In this document: positions 29,101 to 47,501 of the stretch, piece by piece
Layout of the letters: the number at the start of each line of letters is the position of its first letter
How positions within the stretch are numbered: the stretch's first letter is position 1
Assembly (NCBI GenBank): GCA_026388765.1
Contig: JAPLJC010000088.1
Span: forward strand, 1-58,685
DNA: 58,685 nucleotides
Direction of reading: 5' to 3'
Origin: Deltaproteobacteria bacterium
GTDB lineage: Bacteria > Desulfobacterota > Desulfobaccia > Desulfobaccales > 0-14-0-80-60-11
Made by a program: the position numbers and the translations under genes
Notes under the pieces: generated by a model
Database searches by the model: none
The model's input: the letters and a program-made list of their open reading frames with translations, nothing else
What the model was told of the DNA's origin: nothing

Positions 29101-29126
29101 ATATGAAATGGGGGGCAATGCCCACC

Positions 29127-30203
29127 CTACACCTCTTCCGCCGGGGTCAGTTCCCGCCCCAGCATGATACGGTCCTTACCCCGGCCCTTGCTGGAAAACA
29201 TAGCCCGGTCGGCTATGAGGAGCAATTCCTCCCGGTCCCGGGCGTCCTCCGGCAGGGTGGCGATGCCGTAGCTGGCGGTGACCCGGATATCCAGACCCTC
29301 GTCGGTCAAAAAGCTGGTCTGATTGAGCTTTTCCCGCAGGCGCCGGGTCAGCTCCAGGGCCTGGGCTTTGCCGCGGTGGGGCAGGAGAAGGATAAACTCG
29401 TCACCGCCGTAGCGCACCAGGCTGTCGTCGGGTCCCAGAACCGCGTGGATCACCCGGGCCACCGCCCCCAGGACCTTGCTGCCCCGGAGATGACCATAGC
29501 CATCCACCACCGCTTTAAAATTGTCCAGGTCCAGGAAGACCACGGAGAACTCCCCGCCTTGTTCACGAATCTGGGGGATGAGGTGGTCCAGGCTGAAGAT
29601 GAGATAACGGGTGTTGTAAAAGCCGGTGACATCATCGATGAAGGTGAGGGCCTGGAGCTTCTGGAGATTGCGCACGTTGTCCACGGCGATGGCCACGTAG
29701 TCCGCCAGGATGGAGAGATGCGGCAGATATTTTTCCCGGAAGAACTTCTCATCCTCCACGTTGATGACTTCGAAGACCCCGATGACCTCGCCCCGGACCA
29801 CCAAGGGGAGAGCGATGATGGAGCGGGTGCCGAAGCCGGTGGCGCTGTCTACCCGGGCGGAGAAGCGGGGGTCCTGGTCCACGTCGGGGATGAAGATGGG
29901 CTGGCCCGTTTGGGCCACGACGCCGGCAACGCCTTCCCCCAACCTGAGCCGGATGGACTTGACCGACGCCAGATCTACCCCCACCGTCACGGCAAAGCAG
30001 AGCTCCCGGGTTGGCGGGTCCAACAAGAGCAGGGACCAGTTGCGGGCCGGCAGGAGGAGCTTGATGCGCTCCAGGACCGCGGAGAGCAGGGTCTCCATGT
30101 CATAGGCGCTCGCCAGGGCCTTGGAGAACTCGATGGCGGCCAGCAGGCGCTCCACCTGTCCCGTACCGGATTGCGCGTAGGGTAGACCTTCTCTCTTATC
30201 CAC
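29127..30203 (-). CDS. GAF-GGDEF diguanylate cyclase
   Basis: GAF domain (GEGVAGVVAQTG, DPRF), DLDNFK and RYGGDEF motifs; start uncertain (GTG 30203 chosen). Confidence 0.88.
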   Translation of the reverse strand: MDKREGLPYAQSGTGQVERLLAAIEFSKALASAYDMETLLSAVLERIKLLLPARNWSLLLLDPPTRELCFAVTVGVDLASVKSIRLRLGEGVAGVVAQTGQPIFIPDVDQDPRFSARVDSATGFGTRSIIALPLVVRGEVIGVFEVINVEDEKFFREKYLPHLSILADYVAIAVDNVRNLQKLQALTFIDDVTGFYNTRYLIFSLDHLIPQIREQGGEFSVVFLDLDNFKAVVDGYGHLRGSKVLGAVARVIHAVLGPDDSLVRYGGDEFILLLPHRGKAQALELTRRLREKLNQTSFLTDEGLDIRVTASYGIATLPEDARDREELLLIADRAMFSSKGRGKDRIMLGRELTPAEEV

Positions 30204-30409
30204 CGACCTGAGCTCCAAACAGATTCTATGGTTAACGGCCCGGTATTGCAAGGGGTTTGTGGGACGGCCCCAGCCGGTTAAAGGCGGGAAAGACGTCCGT
30301 CCTGCCCGGGGCAATATGGTTCGTTCCGTCTGGCAGTCGTTGACTCCGGGAAGGGGGATGATTAAAGATGTTAAAACAACGCTTATTCCCATGGAAAAAG
30401 GAGGCAGTC

Positions 30410-30889
30410 ATGGCCAAGTTGCTGATCGCGCTGGATAGTTCCGCAGGGGCCTGGCGCGCCGTGGAATACGTGGCTAAAACCTTCGGCCGGACCCCGGGGG
30501 TTGAGGTCACTCTACTGCACATTCTGTCGGGCCTCCCCCCGGCTTTCTGGGATGACGGCCACGTCCTCCAGGAAAAGGAACGGGAAGCCCGGAAACGACT
30601 GGTAGCCGGCTGGCAGCAAGATCAAGAAAAGAAATGGCAGGACCTGGTCAGCCAGGCCCACCAGCACCTCACTGCCGCCGGACTGGCCAAGGGTGCGGTG
30701 GCCAACAAATTTAAACCCAAATATTATGACGTGGCGGACGATATTATTGACGAAGCGCAGACGGGAGGATACGACACCATCGTCATGGGCCGCCGGGGAC
30801 TGGGGAAGGCCAAATCCCTGCTCCTGGGCAGCGTCACCCGCAAGGTCGTGGACGGCGCCAAGGGCTGCGCCGTGACCATAGTGGGGTAG
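30410..30889 (+). CDS. Universal stress protein
   Basis: LLIALDSS and IVMGRRG...LLGSVT motifs; RBS ggagg. Confidence 0.92.
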   Translation: MAKLLIALDSSAGAWRAVEYVAKTFGRTPGVEVTLLHILSGLPPAFWDDGHVLQEKEREARKRLVAGWQQDQEKKWQDLVSQAHQHLTAAGLAKGAVANKFKPKYYDVADDIIDEAQTGGYDTIVMGRRGLGKAKSLLLGSVTRKVVDGAKGCAVTIVG

Positions 30890-30910
30890 GTTACCCAGGC
30901 GTAAAAACAG

Positions 30911-30938
30911 AGGGCGGGATGATACCCGCCCTTTTTTT
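30911..30938 (+). terminator. Rho-independent terminator
   Basis: AGGGCGGG-ATGATA-CCCGCCCT followed by a T tract. Confidence 0.8.
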
Positions 30939-30982
30939 GGCTTTGGCTTACCGCGGCACCGGCCGGAGGCCCCTGCCGCCAA

Positions 30983-31849
30983 TTAGCGCCTAAACTGCAT
31001 CTCGATAAAGTTATCGTTGAGAATGCGGGCCAGGTCAAACCCCCGGGCCACCTCGGCTTTGCTGATGACAATACCCTTGTCGGCCAGTTCCTTGACCGTC
31101 AACTCCGGGGCGTGGCCGGCGAACAGGCGGCGCACGACGTTGTGCATAGTGGCGGAAGAGACGTTGCCCCGGGCCGGCACCCCGCGGGGCACGTCATTAT
31201 GGATCCGCTGGAAGAAAAAATCCACCTGGTGTTCCCCGGCCTGGCTGGAGAAGCGCACCACCCGGTCACCTTCGGCTCCTTCGTTCAAGATCTCCTGGGG
31301 CACATAATGGCTCAAAATTTGATCCGTGCGGTTCTGCTGGGCCAGATAGAGAATGGAAACCAGGTCGTAGTGGTCCAGGGAGCGCTGCTCGTCTTGTTCC
31401 ACCCGGCTGGTGCCGAACTTGCGAAACCGGTGCTCCGGGGCGCCGGCGGTGCGGTTCACCACCATGTCCACCCCGATGGTGCCCACCGAGCAGGAAAGGT
31501 TAAACTGGTTCTCGTCTTCGATGGGGACCCCGTTGCGCTTGAGTTTGTCCACGATGAGGCCGTGGCGGTGGCCGCAGAGGAGGCGGCGAATCAGGGCCTG
31601 CATCAAGTTGGGGGAGGCCTGGTACTTGGGTGACAGGGCCAGGGAAGCGAGCTTCTCCACGGTCATCTCCACGTAGTAGCCATCACTGCTCAGCCTCAGG
31701 TCAATCTTCCCGGCCGGCGCCCCGCCGGGGCCATAGCGCCGCCAGATCTCCTTCCAGTCATATTCCTTCAGGAGTCCCAGTACCGTAATCAAATCAAAAG
31801 AATCCAGTTCGCGCCCTTCCAGTTCCTCAACCTGACATTTGGCTTGCAT
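30983..31849 (-). CDS. Hypothetical protein with a tandemly duplicated domain
   Basis: 288-aa ORF with RBS ggagg; two alignable halves. Confidence 0.75.
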   Translation of the reverse strand: MQAKCQVEELEGRELDSFDLITVLGLLKEYDWKEIWRRYGPGGAPAGKIDLRLSSDGYYVEMTVEKLASLALSPKYQASPNLMQALIRRLLCGHRHGLIVDKLKRNGVPIEDENQFNLSCSVGTIGVDMVVNRTAGAPEHRFRKFGTSRVEQDEQRSLDHYDLVSILYLAQQNRTDQILSHYVPQEILNEGAEGDRVVRFSSQAGEHQVDFFFQRIHNDVPRGVPARGNVSSATMHNVVRRLFAGHAPELTVKELADKGIVISKAEVARGFDLARILNDNFIEMQFRR

Positions 31850-32129
31850 AGGCGGGCCTCCGGTATATTTTGAGATTAAAGATAAGCATCCGGCAGGCCC
31901 GACGCAATCTCTGCACTTAATTTCTAATAGCGCTGTCCTATTTTTTACCAGTTATTAATTCACGGCTCTTTGCCCTTGCCTGCCTTGCGTTTTTTCCGGA
32001 GATGCTTAGGTTTTAACTAAATCGAGGCAGTCACCGACTGCTGCTGTTTAATTGAAAATCCCTGGCCACCGAGGGCGCCCGGGCCGCTCCCTTGGCGGCG
32101 CGGAACCTGCTTAAGGGAAAGGAGAAAAC

Positions 32130-35557: not shown

Positions 35558-36079
35558 GTACCTGGCCTCCTCACTTGTGATTTATTTCATTAATATCATC
35601 AATTTTTCATCAGCGTCAATCAAAAAATCCATTCCCGGGGTCAGCCGGGGAGCAAGGATTAGATGGGTAGACGGTACCGAGGTGAGGGTGAGGCATGAAC
35701 TGTAATGGTCAAGAATTGACCAGGCAACCTCCCCATCAAGGCACAATATCATCAGACAAAAAAGGATTCTGGCCCCCCCCCACACAAAAGGTCAATTTCG
35801 CTATTCAGATCATATCCGGATTTTTCGCTTATCTGAGGATAATTGTCTACTGTGGCAAGTTATCTTACTTTCCAAGGGTTCCCTTCTCATCCAAAATGCC
35901 CCTATCAAGCTGGCAGGGAATTTAAACAAGAAAAGTAGGTAACCACCCTGCAATTTAAATTGTCCTTAGATCCCAAAGGGCCTAAGATGTTACCGAGCGT
36001 CGGCCTGCTCAGCGGCGCAAGAGACAACCAGCGTCCTGGGTCTGCCTTGTTTTCTTGGCTTACATCGGAATGAAAAACC

Positions 36080-37030
36080 ATGAATCAAGCCGAATCGCCC
36101 CGGCATCCCCGGGTAGCGAGCCTCATACTGGGCATAATGCTGACACTCATCGGATTCCAACCCCGAGTCTGGGCTGCTGAGTCCGCCACCGGGGTGTATC
36201 TGCTGGGTTATCAAAGTACCATGTCCGGCTATCTGCCCGGCCCAGGCTTTTATTTGCGGGATGATTTCTATGTCTATCAGGGAAACGCCAAAAACGTGCC
36301 CTTTTCCCGGCGAATCGAGGTGGATGTGCGCAGTCGCTTCATCACCGATCTGGTAGCAGCCACCTATGTGACACCTCTGGAAATTCTCGGGGCCCACTAC
36401 GCCGCGGGGATCATCTGGTCATCGGTGGCCAATGACTTTTTGAAAGGGCGCCTGCACCCGGTACTCCGCACCGGGGAAGGGAACTATACCGGGGTGTCGG
36501 ACCTGACGGTTACTCCCGTTAATCTCGGCTGGCATCTGGGACAGTTTCATATCATGGCCATGGGAAATTTCTATGCCCCAGTGGGGTCGTATGATCCCAA
36601 TCGCCGGCTGAACACCGGCCTGAACCGCTGGGCCCTGGAGCCCAATCTGGCGGTCACCTGGCTCCAGCCCAAATATGGGCAGGAATTCTCCATTTCCATG
36701 GGCTATACGGTGAACTTCGAAAATCCCGCCACGCAGTATAGAACCGGCAACGAATTCCATCTGGAGTACTTCCTGGGCCAGCACCTGCCCAAGGGCTTCG
36801 CCGTGGGTCTGGCGGGCTACGTCTATAACCAGATGACCGCGGACACTGGTCCCGGCGCCACCCGGGGCGCTTTCCACGGCCAGGCCATCGCCCTGGGACC
36901 ATGCCTCACCTTCAATGGCAAGATCGCCGGTCATGACATCGGCCTGAATGCCAGATATTACAACGAAGTAAAGCTAGTTAACCGTTTCAATGGGCAGACC
37001 TTTTTTTTAACCTTGAGCCTCGGAATTTGA
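36080..37030 (+). CDS. SphA/phenol-MetA-type outer-membrane beta-barrel channel
   Basis: Signal peptide; PGPGFY, YAPVGSYD, LNTGLNRW, NFENPATQYRTG and GYVYNQMTAD motifs. Confidence 0.8.
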   Translation: MNQAESPRHPRVASLILGIMLTLIGFQPRVWAAESATGVYLLGYQSTMSGYLPGPGFYLRDDFYVYQGNAKNVPFSRRIEVDVRSRFITDLVAATYVTPLEILGAHYAAGIIWSSVANDFLKGRLHPVLRTGEGNYTGVSDLTVTPVNLGWHLGQFHIMAMGNFYAPVGSYDPNRRLNTGLNRWALEPNLAVTWLQPKYGQEFSISMGYTVNFENPATQYRTGNEFHLEYFLGQHLPKGFAVGLAGYVYNQMTADTGPGATRGAFHGQAIALGPCLTFNGKIAGHDIGLNARYYNEVKLVNRFNGQTFFLTLSLGI

Positions 37031-37082
37031 ATATTTGCTGGAAGACCTGCAAGACCAGTGGACCTAACCGAAAGGAGGACAC

Positions 37083-38588
37083 ATGGAACAAAAGGCACAC
37101 AGCAAGGCTATGAAGTGGGCGGCGGTAGGCAGCGTCCTGGCCGCGGCTACCATCCTGTGCGCCGCTCTGGGGCCGGGGCCGAGCAAGGCGGAGGAGGCGC
37201 CCAAGGCCAACAAGAAACCCAACATCGTCTTCATGTTCATGGACAACATCGGCTACGGCGAGCTGGGTTGTTACGGCGGCGGTATCTTGCGCGGCGCGCC
37301 GACACCGCGCATCGACAAGCTCGCCAGCGAAGGCATGCGCCTGCTCAACTTCAACGTCGAGGCGCAGTGCACGCCTTGCCGGTCGGCATTCATGACGGGC
37401 CGCTTCTCCATCCGGTCGGGCACGTACGAAGTCCCGATCGGGGGCGTCCCGGACGGGCTCACGCTGTGGGAGGTCACCATTGCGAAGTTGTTGTCGGCGC
37501 AGGGCTACGCCACCGGCATGTGGGGCAAGTGGCATCTCGGCAGCGCCGAAGAGCGGTTCCCCACCCATCAGGGTTTCGATGAGTGGTACGGCATCCCGCG
37601 CACCTACGACGAGGCGATGTGGCCGTCGTTGAATGAGACGAATAGCATGTGGCCCTCGATTGGCAACAAGCAGGGTTGGAATGCGAAGATCGTCCCGCCC
37701 CAATACATTTACGAAGCGCGGAGAGGCGAGAAGGCCAAGAAGGTCGCAGTACTGGACGTGGAACAGCGGCGGAACATGGAAAAGGAGATCACGACCCGCG
37801 CCGTGGAGTTCATCAAGCGCAATGCGAGTGCGGGCAAGCCGTTCTTTGCCTACGTTCCGTTTTCGTTGGTTCACTTCCCGACCCTGCCAAATCCGGAGTT
37901 TGCCGGCAAAACCGGCAACGGCGATTGGGCCGATTGCCTGGCCGAGATGGACTACCGGACCGGACAAATCCTCGATGCCATCAAGGAAGCCGGCATTGAA
38001 GACAACACGCTGGTCATCTTCACGAGCGACAATGGCCCGGAGGCGACCCACCCTTGGGAGGGCGACAGCGGACCGTGGCGGGGCACGTATTTCACGGCGA
38101 TGGAGGGCTCGCTACGCGCACCGTTCATTATCCGCTGGCCGGGCAAAGTGCCGGCGGGCAGCGTCAACAACGAGATTGTTCACATCGTGGACCTCTTCAC
38201 GACCCTCGCCCGCGTGGGCGGAGCAAAGATCCCGAAGGATCGCCCGATTGATGGCGTGGACCAGTTGGATTTCTTCTTGGGCAAGCAGGAGACCTCCAAC
38301 CGTGAAGGATTCCCCGCCTTCGTGGCCGACCGGTTGTCGGCCGTCAAGTGGCGCAACTGGAAGGCGCACCTGATCTGGCAGGAGAACATGTACGACCCGC
38401 CGCAGAGACTTCCCTTGCCGAAGCTCTTCAACCTCCTGACCGATCTGAAGGAGGAGCGCGACGTGGGCGCCCAGAACTCCTGGGTCTCCTACCCGATGAC
38501 GAGGATAATCGGTGAGTTCGAGGCCAGCCTGAAGAAATACCCGCCGATCAAGATCGGCACGCCGGACCCGTATGTTCCCCCGAAATAG
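37083..38588 (+). CDS. Secreted arylsulfatase (Cys-type)
   Basis: KPNIVFMFMDN, CTPCR (CxPxR), GKWHLG, FTSDNG and LFNLLTD motifs. Confidence 0.93.
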   Translation: MEQKAHSKAMKWAAVGSVLAAATILCAALGPGPSKAEEAPKANKKPNIVFMFMDNIGYGELGCYGGGILRGAPTPRIDKLASEGMRLLNFNVEAQCTPCRSAFMTGRFSIRSGTYEVPIGGVPDGLTLWEVTIAKLLSAQGYATGMWGKWHLGSAEERFPTHQGFDEWYGIPRTYDEAMWPSLNETNSMWPSIGNKQGWNAKIVPPQYIYEARRGEKAKKVAVLDVEQRRNMEKEITTRAVEFIKRNASAGKPFFAYVPFSLVHFPTLPNPEFAGKTGNGDWADCLAEMDYRTGQILDAIKEAGIEDNTLVIFTSDNGPEATHPWEGDSGPWRGTYFTAMEGSLRAPFIIRWPGKVPAGSVNNEIVHIVDLFTTLARVGGAKIPKDRPIDGVDQLDFFLGKQETSNREGFPAFVADRLSAVKWRNWKAHLIWQENMYDPPQRLPLPKLFNLLTDLKEERDVGAQNSWVSYPMTRIIGEFEASLKKYPPIKIGTPDPYVPPK

Positions 38589-38649
38589 GCAAACCGGGGG
38601 TCTGTCGCCGTATTACGCCGAGGACATTGTCACTATACCTTTTGTCCTG

Positions 38650-38919
38650 CAAATTGCCCAGGAGAGCGTGTCCCTGAAGCGGCAGGCATCCCCGCTCTTT
38701 TACCGGAACAGCCGGACCCTCGCGGTGACCTGTGGGGTGATATTTCTGATAGCCACCTGGATGAGCCTGGGGAAAACCTATGGCTGGTGGACAGGAGGGC
38801 TGGGCTATCAGGCGGTGTCCTTCGGCTTGATTGGGTTAGGCCTATGGCTCAACCGTTGGGATCCTCAATATGCGCGCAGTAGGGCAACGTCATTTGTTAA
38901 CCCGGATCAGCCGGGATGA
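38650..38919 (+). pseudogene. Possible C-terminal remnant of a membrane protein
   Basis: Two TM-like segments and no convincing start or RBS. Confidence 0.3.
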
Positions 38920-39012
38920 TTTCGGATTAAATGCGCATAGTATTTCAGGATAAAAAATTTCCGGGGCTCCAGTTTCTTACGCCCTGGAATTTTCGCGTTG
39001 GAGCCTAAATTA

Positions 39013-39858
39013 ATGAAAAACCTTCTCCAAATGGAAATTTCTCGCAGGAAATTTATGACCCTTGCCCTCGGGGCGTCTGTTTGTTGCCTGTGGCCCGCAC
39101 CCTCTTGGGCTGGATCAATGGGGCCGATCTCGGCCGGGGGAGAGAAAAACTACTATCTGGCCCATAGGGAAGATTTGTTGAAGGCGTTTCATGAAACCAA
39201 CAATGGGGCCTGGCAATATCTGGCGGCCAGGGATGGGGAAAAGCTGGCCCACGCGGTTACCCGGGAGGCGGCGAGCCGGTTCTCGTCCTTGCTCCCCCGC
39301 TTGCCCGACGTGGGCGGGGAGCAAAATATCGACACCCCGTATCTCCCCATTGCCGCCTGGTACCTGGCCTACTACCAACCCATGCAGGCCTATGGGAAGA
39401 CTGCGGCGGACGTGGGCCGCATGATTTATGACCTGAATGAAACGGGTTTGACGAGATACCCAAAGGCCCAGGCCCTGACGGAGGGGGCCCGCTGGTTCAC
39501 CCGTTCCAATCTGGAAAATATGCAAAAGTGGGCCGCATGGACCCAGAAGTGGGAATATCCGGCCAATTGGGAGGCTACGTTAATCCAGGGAGACGGCAAG
39601 GACTTTGATTTCGGCTATGACTATCAAGAGTGTGCCGTAGTCAAGTATCTCCAATCCCAGAGGGCTTCGGAACTGGCACCTTATGTCTGTTTGAATGATT
39701 TTCTCAAAAGCCGGGCCTTTGGCACCGGCCTGAGGCGCAGCAAGACCCTGGCCCAGGGCGATGCGGTCTGCAACTTTCGCTATAAGAAAGGCCGGCAGGT
39801 GACCCAGGATTGGGACACCGAGGTTCCCAAATTTTCGGTCCGGGGAAGAACGTCTTAA
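39013..39858 (+). CDS. Tat-exported protein with L-2-amino-thiazoline-4-carboxylate hydrolase-like domain
   Basis: SRRKFM twin-arginine signal; DYQECAV, YVCLND and LRRSKTLAQGDAVCNFRY motifs. Confidence 0.8.
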   Translation: MKNLLQMEISRRKFMTLALGASVCCLWPAPSWAGSMGPISAGGEKNYYLAHREDLLKAFHETNNGAWQYLAARDGEKLAHAVTREAASRFSSLLPRLPDVGGEQNIDTPYLPIAAWYLAYYQPMQAYGKTAADVGRMIYDLNETGLTRYPKAQALTEGARWFTRSNLENMQKWAAWTQKWEYPANWEATLIQGDGKDFDFGYDYQECAVVKYLQSQRASELAPYVCLNDFLKSRAFGTGLRRSKTLAQGDAVCNFRYKKGRQVTQDWDTEVPKFSVRGRTS

Positions 39859-40400
39859 TTAAGAAGGGATTTATTAATCGGGTAGATAAGCGGTGTGTGG
39901 AGATAACCCCACAATTTTGCGTTTGTTTGCCATCGAAAAGAATTAAAGGCAAATTTGCCCTATGACGGCCGCGGATGCTGGTGGACATTGGGGCGCCCCC
40001 AAACGACTCGAAGCTATCACTGGTCTCCGAAGACCAAAAAGTTAGAGGCGTCGTTATCTGCTATCTATCAATCCTTATAAAATCCATCAAAGTGGGTTTG
40101 ATATAGATATCATAGCTGTATCCAAGTCCCTGGCGACATTTAAAGTTTTAGTCCCAAGGGTCAGGTCTAATCTGATCTCGGTTTGATGATTGTCAGCTCA
40201 AATCTTGGTCATTACACCAGAATTGTTTTTAAACTTTCTGAAAAACCGGGGGGAAGACCGTGAGCCGGAAAGTGCCACCTCGCCAGCCGCGCCTGGTGCC
40301 CCCCCGTTAATGCGCCAAAACTTGCCTGCCCGTCAGCCCAGACTTTATTTCTTTGGCAAATTAGGATATAATCAAAAATTCATTATATTATCTGAGGTTT

Positions 40401-43559: not shown

Positions 43560-44129
43560 ATGAGATTGCCTTATTTCAGCCGCGCTCAACAGGGTGTCAT
43601 CCTTCTCTTAGGGGCCGCCCTGTTTTTTTTATGGGCCTGGCGGGCTAATTTTTTCCTGGCCCCCTCCCCTCCCCCGCCCCGGAACCTGACCCTGGTATTC
43701 GTGGAAGTAAACGGCGCAGGCGCCCATCCCGGGGTCTATACCTTTGAGCACGCCCCCACGCTGGCGGAGGTCTGGCGCCAGAGCGACGGGGCCGGGACGG
43801 CGCCGGCCTGCCCGGATAAAGTAGCCTCGGGCAGCCGGGTAGAGATCGGGGAGGATGGCCATTATCAGTTGGCCCGCATGCACGGCGCCGAACTGCTCAC
43901 CCTCGGCCTGGCCATCGATCTGAATACCGCCACCGCCGCCGACCTGGACGCCCTGCCCGGCGTCGGCCCGGCCCTGGCCCAGGGCATTATCGACTACCGG
44001 CGGGAACATGGCCTTTTTAAGAAAATTGACGATTTGGAAAAGGTCTCGGGAATCGGCTCGAAGAAGTTGGAGAAGATTAAACCTTATTTGGTTATTTCAG
44101 AGACTGAGGGAACCACTGAGGCTCGCTGA
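43560..44129 (+). CDS. comEA: ComEA family DNA-binding protein
   Basis: N-terminal TM; IDLNTA..LDALPGVGP and VSGIG HhH motifs. Confidence 0.9.
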   Translation: MRLPYFSRAQQGVILLLGAALFFLWAWRANFFLAPSPPPPRNLTLVFVEVNGAGAHPGVYTFEHAPTLAEVWRQSDGAGTAPACPDKVASGSRVEIGEDGHYQLARMHGAELLTLGLAIDLNTATAADLDALPGVGPALAQGIIDYRREHGLFKKIDDLEKVSGIGSKKLEKIKPYLVISETEGTTEAR

Positions 44130-44218
44130 TGATAGTGGCACAGGCTTCCAGCCTGTGTCTAGCACAGGCCAGAGGCCTGTGCCACTTTTAGCTGCGGACA
44201 TCGGCGACTAAATTCATC

Positions 44219-45217
44219 ATGTTAATCTTAGGCATCGAAACTTCCTGCGATGAAACCGCTGCGGCGGTAGTAGAGGACGGCCGCCGCGTCTTATCCTCCG
44301 TGGTGGCCACCCAGTTCGAGTCCCACGCCCAATATGGCGGAGTGGTGCCGGAGATCGCCGCCCGGCGGCACCTGGAGAACCTCCTGCCGGTGCTACAGGG
44401 CGCCCTGGACCAGGCCGGGGTGACCCTGAAGGACGTGGACGGCCTGGCCGTGACCCAGGGGCCCGGCCTCATCGGCGCCCTGGTCATTGGCATGGCCGTG
44501 GCCAAGGTGTTGTCCTATACCTTAAAAAAACCATTGGCGGGGGTCCACCATTTACAGGCCCATATCCTGGCGGCCTTCCTGACCGAGAACCCGCCGGCCC
44601 TTCCCTTGGTGGCCCTGGTGGTCTCCGGCGGCCACACCAACCTTTACCGGGTCAACAGCTTCCTGAAGATGGACCTGCTGGGCAGAAGCCGGGATGACGC
44701 CGCCGGGGAGGCCTTCGACAAGGTGGCCAAGCTCATGCAACTGGGTTACCCAGGCGGGGTCAAGGTCGAGGCCCTGGCCGCCCGCGGCAACCCCGCAGCC
44801 TTCTCCCTGCCCCGGCCCCGCATCGCGACAGAACCCCTCACCTTCAGCTTCAGCGGTCTCAAGACCGCGGTGGCCTTGCAGCTCAAACGACATCCGGAGA
44901 TTCTCGCCGACCCCGGGGCCCAGGCCGACCTGGCCGCCAGCTTCCAGGAAGCGGTGGTGGAGTCGCTCACCAGCCGGGCCTGGCTGGCCCTCAAACAGAC
45001 TGGCCTAAACCGCCTGGTGGTCTGCGGCGGGGTGGCGGCCAACGGCCATCTGCGCCAGGTTTTGCGTGATCTGGCCGCAACCGCCGGCACCGAGCTGTTC
45101 CTGCCTACCTTAGACCTGTGCGGCGACAACGCCGCCATGGTGGCGGCCCTGGGCTTCCACCTGCTGGCGGCCGGGCAGCGCCTGGACCTGGACGCGGATG
45201 TCTTTTCCCGGGGGTAG
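44219..45217 (+). CDS. tsaD: tRNA t6A threonylcarbamoyltransferase TsaD
   Basis: GIETSCDET, GGVVPEIAAR, HLQAH, VSGGHT, DDAAGEAFDK and DNAAM motifs. Confidence 0.96.
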   Translation: MLILGIETSCDETAAAVVEDGRRVLSSVVATQFESHAQYGGVVPEIAARRHLENLLPVLQGALDQAGVTLKDVDGLAVTQGPGLIGALVIGMAVAKVLSYTLKKPLAGVHHLQAHILAAFLTENPPALPLVALVVSGGHTNLYRVNSFLKMDLLGRSRDDAAGEAFDKVAKLMQLGYPGGVKVEALAARGNPAAFSLPRPRIATEPLTFSFSGLKTAVALQLKRHPEILADPGAQADLAASFQEAVVESLTSRAWLALKQTGLNRLVVCGGVAANGHLRQVLRDLAATAGTELFLPTLDLCGDNAAMVAALGFHLLAAGQRLDLDADVFSRG

Positions 45218-45245
45218 GAGTATGACAATGGTGCGTAGGACGCAC
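45171..45245 (+). repeat. 75-bp direct repeat, copy 1 (tsaD 3' end plus REP)
   Basis: Matches 45884-45958 with 4 mismatches. Confidence 0.92.
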
Positions 45246-45284
45246 CCTACCGTGATTGCCACCGTAGGGTGCGTCCTACGCACC
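45230..45284. repeat. GTAG-type REP doublet (family B) left of RAYT-2
   Basis: GGTGCGTAGGACGCACCCTAC and its reverse complement; further copies at 45860-45880, 45943-45961 and 45971-45991. Confidence 0.9.
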
Positions 45285-45307
45285 ATCATTTAGGGGTTGC
45301 CTTAAGA

Positions 45308-45856
45308 ATGCCGGAATATCGTCGGGTTAAGACCAAAGGTGGTACGTATTTTTTCACGGTGAACACCCACTTGCGTCGGCCTATTTTAACGACAGAAAGC
45401 ATTCGCCAAGCCTTGCGAGATGGCATTAATAGAGCTCGGCAAACCTTACCGTTCAAGATCGAAGCCTGGGTTTTGTTACCAGACCATCTCCATGCCATCC
45501 GGACCCTGCCTTTGAACGATCATAATTATTCCTCCCGCTGGGCCATCATTAAGCGCCAGGTAAGTAAAAATTGCCCTGCACAATTCGACAGCAGCGCCCA
45601 GATAAGTAATTCCAGGCTTAAACGTCAGGAAAGCGGTATCTGGCAAAGGCGTTTTTGGGAGCACCAGATTAGGGATGACCTCGATTTTGAACGTCATATG
45701 GATTACTTGCATTGGAATCCGGTAAAGCATGGCTATGTTCGGAAGGTGATAGATTGGCCGTTTTCATCCTTTCACCGATTGGTGGCTCAGGGGGTTTATC
45801 CGCCTTATTGGGGTGGAGAGGAGGTTGATAAGGATGAGTACAGTTTTGGCGAATGA
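45308..45856 (+). mobile_element. REP-associated tyrosine transposase (RAYT-2, TnpA-REP/YafM type)
   Basis: GGTYFFTV, WVLLPDHLH (HUH), IWQRRFWEHQIRD, DYLHWNPVKHG and DWPFSSFH motifs. Confidence 0.92.
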
Positions 45857-45883
45857 ATTGGTGCGTAGGACGCACCCTACAAA

Positions 45884-45958
45884 CCGGGCAGCGCCTGGAT
45901 TTGGACGCCGATGTCTTCTCCCGGGGGTAGGAGTATGACAATGGTGCGTAGGACGCAC
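45884..45958 (+). repeat. 75-bp direct repeat, copy 2 (orphan tsaD 3' end plus REP)
   Basis: Encodes GQRLDLDADVFSRG*, the same peptide as the tsaD C-terminus. Confidence 0.92.
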
Positions 45959-46130
45959 TACAGAAAGGGCATAGGGTGCGTCCTGCGCACCATGAAAAAA
46001 TGCCGCGCCGGAATTTGAAGACCGCTAATTTCTTTTTTAGATATTCCCATTTAGTTATAATTATTTGATATAGTCGCCTTTACGGGAGGAGTGGCAGGGC
46101 GGATTAGCGCCCCGCCGATGCGCAGAGATC

Positions 46131-47501
46131 ATGGAGCAGTCCCTGGGACAACGCCTGGCCCTGTTGACCGATCTTTATCAGTTGACCATGGCGGCCTGCT
46201 ATTTCGAGCAGGGGATGGAGGCAGAGGCCACCTTTAGTCTGTTCATCCGCAAATACCCCGCCGACCGCGGCTACTTTGTCGCCGCCGGCCTGGCCGAAGC
46301 CCTCACCTACCTGGAAAGTTTGAGATTTGCCGAAGAAGACCTGGCCTTTCTTTCGAGCACCGGGCTCTTTCAAACCTCTTTCCTCGATTACCTGGCTAGG
46401 GTCCGGTTCACCGGGGAGGTGCACGCCCTGCCGGAAGGGACCATCTTTTTCAAGGACGAGCCCATTTTAGAGGTGAGCGGACCCATCCTGGAAGCCCAAT
46501 TGGCGGAGACCTTCATCATCAACGCCGTCAGCCTCCAGACCATGATCGCCACCAAGGCCTCCCGCGCCGTCTATGCGGCTCAGGGGCGCCCTCTGATCGA
46601 TTTTTCCCTGCGGCGCACCCAGGGAACCGACGCCGGCCTGAAGGTGGCCCGGGCCAGTTATCTGGCCGGGTTCCTGGGGACCAGCAACGTCCTGGCGGGG
46701 AAACTTTACGGTCTCCCCACCTTCGGCACCATGGCCCATTCCTACATTACCAGCTTTACCCGGGAGATTGACGCCTTCCGGGTCTTCGCCCGGGTCTTCC
46801 CCAAGACCACCACCCTGCTCATCGACACCTATGACAACCTGGCCGGGGCCAGGAATGCCGTGACGGTGGCCAAGGAGATGGAGGCCCGGGGGGAGCGACT
46901 GCGTTACGTACGCCTGGATTCCGGAGATATGGCCGCCATTAGCCGGGAGGTGCGCCGCCTCCTGAACGACCACGGCCTCAATTACGTCCGCATCCTCGCC
47001 AGCGGCAGCTTTGATGAGCACAAGATCGCCAAGGTGTTGGGCGCGGGCGCCGAGATAGACAGCTTTGCAGTGGGCACCAAAATGGGGGTGTCCGCCGATG
47101 CCCCGTACTTCGACATCGCCTATAAACTGGTAAAATATGCCGAACGGCCGGTGATGAAACTCTCCACCGGCAAGGTCACCCTGGTGGACAAGAAACAGGT
47201 TTTCCGCCATTATGACGATAAGGGTAAGATGCAGCGGGATGTTATTGCCCTGCGGAATGAAGACGTTGCCTGGGCCTTGCCGCTGCTGCGGCCGGTGATG
47301 CGCCGGGGCCAGATCGTCCGGCCTTTGCCATCCCTGAACGACCACCGAGAACATTTTCAGGCTCAGTTTGCACACCTACCCGAGCCTTACAAGGCCCTGG
47401 AGAACCCGCCGGTTTATCCGGTGGAGTTGAGTCCCGGACTCCAGGACTTGCAGTCCCGAGTGGAGTGCAAACTGCGTCAGGGCGAAATGGGAGAAAGTTG
47501 A
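46131..47501 (+). CDS. pncB: Nicotinate phosphoribosyltransferase
   Basis: LLTDLYQLTM, DFSLRR, GTMAHS, LIDTYD and VRLDSGD motifs. Confidence 0.95.
   Translation: MEQSLGQRLALLTDLYQLTMAACYFEQGMEAEATFSLFIRKYPADRGYFVAAGLAEALTYLESLRFAEEDLAFLSSTGLFQTSFLDYLARVRFTGEVHALPEGTIFFKDEPILEVSGPILEAQLAETFIINAVSLQTMIATKASRAVYAAQGRPLIDFSLRRTQGTDAGLKVARASYLAGFLGTSNVLAGKLYGLPTFGTMAHSYITSFTREIDAFRVFARVFPKTTTLLIDTYDNLAGARNAVTVAKEMEARGERLRYVRLDSGDMAAISREVRRLLNDHGLNYVRILASGSFDEHKIAKVLGAGAEIDSFAVGTKMGVSADAPYFDIAYKLVKYAERPVMKLSTGKVTLVDKKQVFRHYDDKGKMQRDVIALRNEDVAWALPLLRPVMRRGQIVRPLPSLNDHREHFQAQFAHLPEPYKALENPPVYPVELSPGLQDLQSRVECKLRQGEMGES

What the first reader, a model, noticed from the sequence alone, without database searches (positions are those of the whole stretch)
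45171..45991. RAYT-2 cassette bracketed by a duplicated tsaD 3' end with only synonymous differences
Seen: 45171-45245 is repeated at 45884-45958. The four mismatches (GAC/GAT, CTG/TTG, GCG/GCC, TTT/TTC) are all synonymous in the tsaD frame. Five GTAG-type REPs surround the RAYT, and the second copy starts 3 nt after a REP end. Established: RAYTs are usually regarded as domesticated and rarely seen to move, and integrative elements often restore the 3' end of their target gene. Inference: both copies evolved under coding selection, so one came from another strain's tsaD allele. This suggests a ~713-bp RAYT unit arrived by integration or recombination at tsaD, a rare footprint of RAYT mobility.
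Basis: partly seen in the sequence, partly recalled or inferred. Interest (0 to 1): 0.75.

Follow-up and report, generated by a model that had tools for sequence, protein, structure and literature searches.

The report
RAYT cassette inside duplicated tsaD end
A domesticated transposase gene (RAYT) sits inside the tail of the essential gene tsaD and supplies a replacement tail, and the left-over second tail looks like another strain's version, which points to exchange by recombination between relatives rather than to the RAYT jumping.

Summary
45171-45245 and 45884-45958 are a 75-nt direct repeat with 4 mismatches, all synonymous in the tsaD frame. Five REPs surround an intact RAYT, and copy 2 starts 3 nt after a REP.

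Contigs from three separate studies carry the RAYT-to-copy-2 junction unchanged, so it is not an assembly chimera.

The tsaD-pncB spacer is an old RAYT home. 8 of 49 family genomes, in 4 genera, hold a RAYT or a remnant there. Carriers are scattered on the host tree, two RAYT lineages share the site, and the nearest relative (95% identity) has no cassette.

In two other genera a displaced tsaD tail also lies 2-3 nt after the REP that closes the cassette, followed by the relatives' native spacer. The genome's second RAYT, between trpC and trpF, shows the same build.

Best reading: the cassette carries its own tsaD terminus, and copy 2 is the displaced terminus of a cassette-less or decayed haplotype. 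The two copies are different natural alleles brought together by homologous recombination between relatives. How the REP-end junction first formed is unknown.

I found no evidence for RAYT self-transposition or a 713-bp circle. This is a new variant of a known kind, of moderate interest.

The parts
44219..45217 (+). tsaD, complete (332 aa); its last 47 nt are copy 1 of the repeat
   Evidence: ORF; TIGR03723 416.8 bits against cutoff 296; Pfam TsaD 1e-90
45171..45245 (+). Repeat copy 1: functional tsaD 3' end (to the stop at 45215-45217), an 11-nt spacer (45218-45228) and the first 17 nt of a REP
   Evidence: family D1; at the four variable sites it matches genus relatives G002 and G004
45229..45250 (-). 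REP 1 (GTAG head reads on the minus strand); with REP 2 it forms a REPIN with a 13-nt spacer
   Evidence: (I3, 27-nt arms, 96%)
45264..45285 (+). REP 2, 22 nt upstream of the RAYT start; perfect inverted partner of REP 3
   Evidence: I4 (22-nt arms, 100% complementary)
45308..45856 (+). RAYT (REP-associated tyrosine transposase), 182 aa, intact, with the HUH and catalytic Tyr regions aligned to E. coli TnpArep
   Evidence: Pfam Y1_Tnp is only 21 bits, below its cutoff of 23
45859..45880 (-). REP 3, which closes the cassette; it is followed by AAA (45881-45883) and then copy 2
45884..45958 (+). Repeat copy 2: displaced, non-functional tsaD 3' end (45884-45930 including a stop), the same 11-nt spacer (45931-45941) and a REP start
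   Evidence: D1; contigs of 3 studies bridge REP 3 into it with 0 differences; it shares 2 of its 4 variant states with G003's tsaD
45942..45963 (-). REP 4 (2-nt deletion)
   Evidence: D2 (82%)
45972..45993 (+). REP 5 (2 mismatches); with REP 4 it forms a worn REPIN
   Evidence: (I11)
45994..46025 (.). About 30 nt that align with decayed spacers of G003, G004 and G002; probably a relic of an older, deleted RAYT (inferred, alignment ambiguous)
   Evidence: pairwise alignments: 44 of 56 to G004 and 39 of 53 to G003; MAFFT gives a different placement
46026..47501 (+). pncB leader (46026-46130, 1 mismatch to G003) and pncB (46131-47501)

Best explanation
Anatomy (shown). The RAYT cassette is REP 1, a spacer, REP 2, the RAYT gene and REP 3. 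It sits inside the 3' end of tsaD and brings its own copy of the last 16 codons and stop, so tsaD stays whole. The 47 nt of tsaD tail after REP 3 (copy 2) are a displaced terminus. It is followed by a worn REPIN and then the normal pncB leader.

Origin of the two copies (inferred). They are two natural alleles of tsaD. The spacer between tsaD and pncB exists in this family as alternative haplotypes: with a cassette of one of two RAYT lineages, with decayed remnants, or empty. Related strains exchange these haplotypes by homologous recombination. A crossover in tsaD on the left, and one in the displaced tail, spacer or pncB on the right, puts a cassette with the donor's tsaD end next to the recipient's own tail. 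A recombination tract from a cassette-less strain could instead overwrite the displaced tail.

Consequence (inferred). The direct repeats also allow clean loss of the cassette with tsaD restored.

Open. The junction 'REP end + 2-3 nt + gene tail' must have formed once by an illegitimate or REP/RAYT-dependent event. Its mechanism is not shown. The RAYT itself acts on REPs and is not seen to move.
For: (1) The repeat and the synonymous-only differences hold (P 0.005-0.011). The 28 non-coding bases show no change, so copy 2 has hardly decayed as a pseudogene.

(2) The junction is real in contigs of 3 studies and in a diverged strain.

(3) The five closest RAYT homologues outside G000 (G043, G044, G042, G058, G076; 64-77% aa) all lie between tsaD and pncB. 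Six further homologues (60-64%) do not.

(4) 8 of 49 family loci hold a RAYT or remnant in this spacer. The 5 carriers of the window's RAYT lineage need 4 changes on the PncB tree. The nearest sampled relatives of four of them (G003, G045, G048, G023/G083) lack it; the fifth, G043, groups with G042.

(5) Two RAYT lineages share the site. G002's remnant groups with genus g9 (95/99), while PncB puts G002 with G000. The AU test rejects G000+G002 (p = 0.0003) and G058+g9 (p = 0.008).

(6) Displaced tsaD tails occur 2-3 nt after the closing REP in other genera. G058 has 26 of 29 identical, with 0 of 500 shuffles as high. G043 gives p = 0.006.

(7) In both, the tail is followed by sequence colinear with the native tsaD-end-to-pncB spacer of cassette-less relatives. 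In G058 the likeness stops at the stop codon.

(8) The genome's second RAYT (G000:C213), between trpC and trpF, has a displaced trpC tail 2 nt after its closing REP (score 44, 0 of 1000 shuffles). The tail is open to a stop and ends like G002's trpC.

(9) Control: in 96 tests on about 70 unrelated RAYT loci, one reached p = 0 (a REP flank) and one p = 0.005.

(10) Weak: divergence from G003 drops from 10 of 158 in the last part of tsaD to 9 of 500 just right of the cassette.
Against: No donor haplotype and no same-species cassette-less genome was sampled. The metagenome scan gave 80 loci, the best at 66% aa, and none next to tsaD or pncB.

The 11-nt spacer and REP start are identical in both copies (28 of 28). 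That fits a local copy of 'REP plus flank' at least as well.

tsaD shows no change in SNP density against G003 along its length.

G003 holds almost as many copies of this REP as G000 (24 against 31 at up to 1 mismatch). This suggests recent RAYT loss in G003 rather than gain in G000.

The homology of the relic at 45994-46025 is ambiguous.

The junction positions differ between genera (47, 29 and about 15 nt before the stop), so one origin or several cannot be told apart.

The AU-test groups were taken from the host tree after the RAYT tree had been seen. G002's remnant is only 64 aa.

Four of the eight spacer loci tested show no displaced tail.
Confidence: 0.5

Rival explanations
1. Local duplication followed by allele replacement. 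A RAYT- or replication-driven event copied REP 1 together with its 58-nt flank (spacer plus tsaD tail) into the spacer of the REPIN downstream of the RAYT. Later, ordinary recombination replaced the functional tsaD end with a foreign allele.
For: The repeat ends exactly at a REP end and includes the spacer and REP start with 28 of 28 identity. Removing 45884-45963 would leave REP 3, 13 nt and REP 5, the same spacer length as the first REPIN. Nunvar et al. 2010 (PMC2817692, passages read) report rayt 3' termini 'captured between REPs' in BIMEs. G013's trpC locus shows such repeated RAYT-tail-plus-REP units.
Against: It needs three steps: an ancestral cassette with loss in G003, the copy event, and an allele swap. 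In G058 and at the trpC locus the displaced tails are not followed by the flank and REP of the functional copy, and the likeness ends at or near the stop codon. The displaced tails there sit where relatives have their native gene end.
Confidence: 0.22
2. A roughly 713-bp RAYT unit is itself mobile: it is excised, possibly as a circle cut at the REP end, and integrates at the tsaD 3' end, with the RAYT cutting at the REP boundary.
For: In four cases the junction lies 2-3 nt from the GTAG end of the closing REP: G000 tsaD, G058, G043 and G000 trpC. On the minus strand REP 3 and REP 1 are direct, like the two ends of an IS200/IS605 element. TnpArep cleaves and joins single-stranded REP DNA in vitro, 5' or 3' of the REP (PMC8266576, passages read).
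Against: The published cleavage sites are C|T or C|A dinucleotides, and the junctions here are not at such a dinucleotide. There is only one copy of the unit in the genome; the next RAYT is 49% identical. No circle or empty-site joint is among those listed. The insertion points in tsaD differ between genera. IS200/IS605-type insertion makes no long target duplication (PMC2817692, passage).
Confidence: 0.12
3. An old duplication kept alike by gene conversion between the two copies, or the four synonymous differences are chance.
For: Direct repeats 713 nt apart can convert each other. Four sites is a small sample.
Against: P(4 of 4 synonymous) is 0.005-0.011. Outgroups G002 and G004 carry copy 1's states at all four sites, so the changes would lie in the unconstrained copy and yet all be synonymous. 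The G058 (29 nt) and G043 (about 15 nt) tails are, from recalled knowledge, near or below the lengths usually given for RecA-dependent conversion.
Confidence: 0.08
4. Assembly chimera of two strains in a metagenome-assembled genome.
For: G000 is a 263-contig assembly at 93.5% completeness.
Against: Contigs from three different studies bridge RAYT, REP 3, AAA and copy 2 with 0 differences. Others bridge the tsaD body, copy 1 and REP 1.
Confidence: 0.02

Closest known systems
REPtron / RAYT (TnpArep) with flanking REPs and a REPIN population (E. coli TnpArep, PDB 4ER8; Nunvar 2010; Bertels & Rainey)
   Same: Full-length RAYT, flanked by inverted REPs with a GTAG head and a 7-bp stem. The REP family is spread over the genome. 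There is one copy of this RAYT lineage per genome, and it sits in the same spacer in several genera.
   Different: The literature passages I read describe RAYTs as vertically inherited and rarely moving between hosts (bioRxiv 10.1101/2021.07.10.451892; PMC5581495). Here carriers are scattered on the host tree and two RAYT lineages share one site. The cassette also interrupts a gene end and replaces it. I did not find that in the passages read; searches.
Integrative elements that insert into the 3' end of a gene or tRNA and restore it (integrase-borne islands and prophages; recalled knowledge)
   Same: The element-borne copy completes the target gene. The displaced end remains as a direct repeat. 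An empty site exists in a close relative.
   Different: There is no integrase or other recombinase besides the HUH-type RAYT in the 713 bp. The repeat spans 75-80 nt including a REP. The insertion point in tsaD varies between genera.
BIME growth with 'captured' rayt 3' termini between REPs (Nunvar et al. 2010, PMC2817692, passages)
   Same: A gene tail lies directly beside a REP and is repeated; the junction is at a REP boundary.
   Different: Here the tail belongs to a housekeeping gene and differs from the source only at synonymous sites. In two of the four cases the flank is not co-duplicated.
IS200/IS605 insertion sequences
   Same: Related Y1 HUH enzyme, with hairpins next to both ends.
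   Different: Single copy, a long direct repeat, and REPs in inverted orientation around the gene. Pfam Y1_Tnp scores below its cutoff.
Homology-facilitated illegitimate recombination in natural transformation (recalled; no paper seen here)
   Same: One homologous anchor (tsaD) and one illegitimate joint would give exactly this structure, with the donor allele next to the insert.
   Different: Not tested. The joint lies at a REP hairpin end in all four cases, which plain HFIR does not predict.

Membership tests
RAYT / TnpArep (REPtron) | Y1 HUH transposase matching the RAYT-specific model | tested here: met
   NF047646 at 190 bits against cutoff 80, covering 146 of 146 profile positions; 4ER8 at E = 2e-46 over residues 1-174
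RAYT / TnpArep (REPtron) | [quoted passage not shown] | tested here: met
   45264-45285 and 45859-45880, 22 nt, 100% complementary (I4)
RAYT / TnpArep (REPtron) | REPs with a GTAG head plus palindrome, dispersed in the genome | tested here: met
   66 matches at up to 3 mismatches against 0 for the control; flanks listed
RAYT / TnpArep (REPtron) | Vertical inheritance, phylogeny congruent with the host | tested here: inconclusive
   Same spacer in 4 genera, but 4 changes are needed for 5 carriers and the AU tests reject host-tree groupings. Small sample, and two of the genes are broken (G042, G044)
RAYT / TnpArep (REPtron) | Cleavage and strand transfer on single-stranded REP DNA | not testable with these tools
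   Biochemical assay needed
Integrase-borne element restoring a target gene's 3' end | Site-specific recombinase (integrase) encoded in the element | tested here: not met
   RAYT is the only gene identified between the repeats; the other ORFs of 40 aa or more overlap it or the repeats and were not scanned, and RAYT itself gave no recombinase hit
Integrase-borne element restoring a target gene's 3' end | Direct repeats made of the target's 3' end; empty site in relatives | tested here: met
   G003 has tsaD, 168 nt, then pncB without a REP or RAYT
Integrase-borne element restoring a target gene's 3' end | Excised circular form | tested here: inconclusive
   No joint skipping 713 nt among the 15 joints listed; 10 were not shown; contigs only, no raw reads
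IS200/IS605 insertion sequence | Several near-identical copies of the whole element; no long target duplication | tested here: not met
   One copy, with the next RAYT at 49% aa; a 75-nt direct repeat
REP-captured flank (BIME-type local duplication) | The copy derives from the neighbouring source in the same genome and so has no coding history of its own | tested here: not met
   4 of 4 differences are synonymous, P 0.005-0.011. The G058 and trpC tails lack the co-duplicated flank

The most novel reading that the evidence does not exclude
RAYT cassettes of this bacterial family are a so-far undescribed kind of mobile cassette. They travel between genomes carrying the tail of the upstream housekeeping gene as a built-in homology arm and replacement terminus. 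Their far end is defined by a cut at the closing REP, made by the RAYT or set by the hairpin. A 'domesticated' transposase could thus be lost and regained at its home site, rescuing orphan REPIN populations.
Probability: 0.15. Interest if true: 0.8.

Novelty: new variant of a known kind. Interest (0 to 1): 0.55.

Why it matters
RAYTs are held to be immobile, vertically inherited genes. [quoted passage not shown]

Here one family shows an old RAYT home site with frequent decay, two RAYT lineages at the same site, and carriers scattered on the host tree. Four loci also hold a displaced gene tail that records which allele came with the cassette.

This gives a directly testable handle on how RAYTs are lost and regained: population sequencing of the tsaD-pncB and trpC-trpF spacers. 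It also raises the question of whether the REP boundary is a recombination joint.

Practically, such duplicated gene tails can mislead gene callers and assemblers.

Tried and rejected
A metagenome scan with the RAYT protein gave 80 loci, the best at 66% aa, and none with tsaD or pncB beside it. One locus had a weak TsaB-like hit. No closer strains were gained.

A broad search for direct repeats around about 70 unrelated RAYTs was swamped by whole REPINs and one coordinate error. I replaced it with a test based on gene ends.

SNP density along tsaD against G003 is flat, so no tract boundary is visible.

A 20-kb comparison with G003 shows blocks of 85-97% identity. Next to the cassette there is only a weak step.

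Read laying on contigs cannot show rare variants. I saw no joint skipping 713 nt among those listed, and this is not evidence of absence.

The earlier-findings look-up returned nothing.

REP counts across the family did not separate gain from loss.

I considered that 45994-46025 is the 5' end of the window's own RAYT lineage rather than an internal relic of the other lineage. This stays unresolved.

I did not assign a RAYT group (2 or 3) because no reference set was at hand.
Full report
**The observation**

The window is a whole contig (C180) of a 263-contig, 93.5%-complete assembly. tsaD runs 44219-45217, the RAYT 45308-45856 and pncB 46131-47501, all on the plus strand.

The repeat finder gives a 75-nt direct repeat, 45171-45245 / 45884-45958, with 71 of 75 identical. 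The four mismatches are GAC/GAT, CTG/TTG, GCG/GCC and TTT/TTC in the tsaD frame, all synonymous. None falls in the 28 non-coding bases (an 11-nt spacer plus a REP start).

Four random substitutions in the 45 in-frame bases are all synonymous with P = 0.005-0.011.

Five REPs (GTAG head, 7-bp stem, 3-nt loop) lie at 45229-50, 45264-85, 45859-80, 45942-63 and 45972-93. The family has 66 members in the genome at up to 3 mismatches, against 0 for a reversed control.

Copy 2 begins 3 nt after the REP that closes the cassette. The RAYT is intact and full length: NF047646 scores 190 bits against a cutoff of 80, and E. coli TnpArep 4ER8 matches at E = 2e-46.

**Is it an assembly artefact?**

Logan contigs of three different studies (X1, X5, X7) cover 45216 (X1, X5) or 45206 (X7) to 45948/58 without a single difference. 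They run from just after the tsaD stop, through both REPs, the RAYT, REP 3 and AAA, into copy 2.

Contigs of X1 and X7 join the tsaD body to copy 1 and REP 1. A more distant strain in X10 has a contig (92% identical) that bridges the RAYT end, REP 3 and the start of copy 2.

The structure is therefore real and stable in this species. No joint that skips 713 nt is among the 15 listed. Ten more were not shown, and contigs drop rare forms, so this says nothing about rare excision.

**The site in relatives**

The nearest genome, G003 (95-96% identity), has tsaD, 168 nt and pncB, with no REP or RAYT. G004 is likewise empty apart from a decayed REP. G002 keeps the last third of a RAYT and a REP. Six genus members carry a thioredoxin-reductase-like gene on the other strand instead.

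I searched the family (69 genomes) with the RAYT. The five best hits outside G000 are G043 (74%), G044 (72%), G042 (77%), G058 (67%) and G076 (64%). All lie between tsaD and pncB. Six further hits of 60-64% do not.

Of the 49 family genomes for which I held both the tsaD end and the pncB start, 8 have a RAYT or remnant in the spacer, in 4 genera. Several more have lone REPs there. So the spacer is an old RAYT home, not a new target.

**Not simply vertical**

On a PncB tree, the five carriers of the window's RAYT lineage need four changes. Four of them have as nearest sampled relative a genome that lacks the cassette: G000/G003, G042/G045, G044/G048 and G058/(G023, G083); the fifth, G043, groups with G042.

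Two RAYT lineages occupy the site. One has its REP 1 nt after the tsaD stop (G022, G076 and G002's remnant). The other is the window's type, with a stop, 11-30 nt, an inverted REP, a spacer, a REP and then the RAYT.

G002's remnant groups with genus g9 (95/99), although PncB puts G002 next to G000. AU tests reject G000+G002 (p = 0.0003) and G058+g9 (p = 0.008). The groups came from the host tree but were named after I had seen the RAYT tree, and G002's piece is only 64 aa.

G042 and G043 share an orthologous cassette; G042's RAYT is broken by a 77-nt deletion and G044's by a stop.

**The same footprint elsewhere**

I aligned the last 60 nt of each genome's own tsaD to the stretch between the RAYT stop and pncB.
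- G000 scores 74 (0 of 500 shuffles as high).
- G058 scores 43 (0 of 500), with 26 of 29 identical.
- G043 scores 25 (p = 0.006).
- G076 gives p = 0.05.
- G044, G042, G022 and G002 give nothing.

In G000, G058 and G043 the tail starts 2-3 nt after the closing REP.

In G058 and G043 the tail is followed by sequence colinear with the native tsaD-end-to-pncB spacer of cassette-less relatives: G023 and G083 for G058, and G052, G053, G055 and G045 for G043. In G058 the likeness ends at the stop codon and the flanks differ. That is expected of two alleles and not of a local copy.

The genome's second RAYT (G000:C213, 49% identical) lies between trpC and trpF. It has a displaced trpC tail 2 nt after its closing REP (score 44, 0 of 1000 shuffles). 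The tail is open to a stop codon. It has four synonymous codon differences and two amino-acid changes, and it ends like G002's trpC.

As a control I ran 96 such tests on about 70 unrelated RAYT loci. One reached p = 0, which was a REP flank, and one reached p = 0.005. The footprint is therefore not a general property of RAYT loci.

**Reading**

Shown:
- The cassette carries the functional tsaD terminus.
- Copy 2 is a displaced terminus, followed by a worn REPIN and the pncB leader.
- Copy 2 has the marks of a sequence that was coding until recently.

Inferred: the two copies are different natural alleles.
- Copy 1 has the states of G002 and G004 at all four sites.
- Copy 2 shares two states with G003.
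- All states occur in family tsaD genes.

The simplest process is exchange of spacer haplotypes (cassette, relic, empty) between relatives by homologous recombination. One crossover falls in tsaD and the other in the displaced tail, spacer or pncB. This places a donor-linked terminus beside the recipient's own tail and needs no new illegitimate event.

A weak step in divergence from G003 fits this: 10 of 158 in the last part of tsaD against 9 of 500 right of the cassette. Against it, tsaD as a whole shows no tract boundary.

The first formation of the junction 'REP end + 2-3 nt + gene tail' remains unexplained. It could be a RAYT cut and join. However, published TnpArep sites are C|T or C|A (PMC8266576, passages), and the junctions here are not at such a dinucleotide. 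It could instead be illegitimate joining at a hairpin-protected DNA end, which is my inference from recalled knowledge of homology-facilitated illegitimate recombination.

**Rivals**

A local copy of REP 1 with its flank, followed by an allele swap, fits the 28 of 28 identity of spacer and REP. It also fits Nunvar's 'captured rayt 3' termini' (PMC2817692, passages) and the 13-nt spacing that removal of 45884-45963 would restore. It does not fit G058 or the trpC locus.

Literal RAYT transposition of a 713-bp unit has no direct support. Gene conversion or chance is disfavoured by the synonymous pattern together with the outgroup states. Chimeric assembly is excluded.

**Comparison with the literature**

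The passages I read state that RAYTs sit in the same extragenic space within species, are vertically inherited and rarely move. [quoted passage not shown] PMC5581495 notes rare or long-term horizontal transfer.

I found no description of a RAYT cassette that replaces the end of a neighbouring gene and leaves the old end behind. This rests on searches, with passages only read in four papers and no supplements opened. It is not proof of absence.

**Verdict**

- Observation: confirmed.
- Interpretation: partly supported. Two alleles: yes. Arrival by recombination: plausible. RAYT mobility: not shown.
- Novelty: a new variant of a known kind.
- Interest: 0.55.

Noticed in passing
G000:C213 (locus L002 about 1330-2170, displaced tail L002 1397-1438): The genome's second RAYT (168 aa, 49% identical to the window's) lies between trpC and trpF with its own REP family. 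It is bracketed by the functional trpC end and a displaced trpC tail 2 nt after the closing REP. G003 has a decayed copy at the same site (75% nt against flanks of 97% and 92%). Six genus members have only a REPIN there.
   Followed up: yes
window 44124-44196: A pair of palindromes of another repeat family (stem CACAGGC ... GCCTGTG) lies between the comEA-like gene and tsaD. There are 148 hits in the genome against 0 for the reversed control. Contig depth is high here in all four runs.
   Followed up: partly
L154 (G013:C78, trpC-trpF spacer): Two extra tandem units, each made of a RAYT 3' terminus plus a REPIN, precede the full RAYT. This resembles the 'captured rayt 3' termini' described by Nunvar et al.
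   Followed up: no
G008 (C14:268146-269989 and elsewhere): At least 10 RAYT matches (49-55% aa) in one genome, three of them in tandem within 2 kb. This is unusual for a gene family said to be single copy.
   Followed up: no
L011, L013, L014, L017, L018, L019 (G005, G008, G006, G007, G014, G012): In one clade of the genus, a 322-aa thioredoxin-reductase-like gene on the opposite strand fills the tsaD-pncB spacer.
   Followed up: no
L010 552-554 (G003 tsaD): The tsaD of the nearest relative reads in two frames (aa 1-37 and 38-332). This is a frameshift or a sequencing error.
   Followed up: no
window 35714-40310: About 4.6 kb present in the window has no counterpart in the colinear stretch of G003. 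The block 29123-31889 is only 85% identical, against 93-97% around it.
   Followed up: no
window 46026-46130: The pncB leader is almost invariant between G000 and G003 (1 mismatch in about 105 nt) and is recognisably conserved across the genus. It may be a regulatory element.
   Followed up: no
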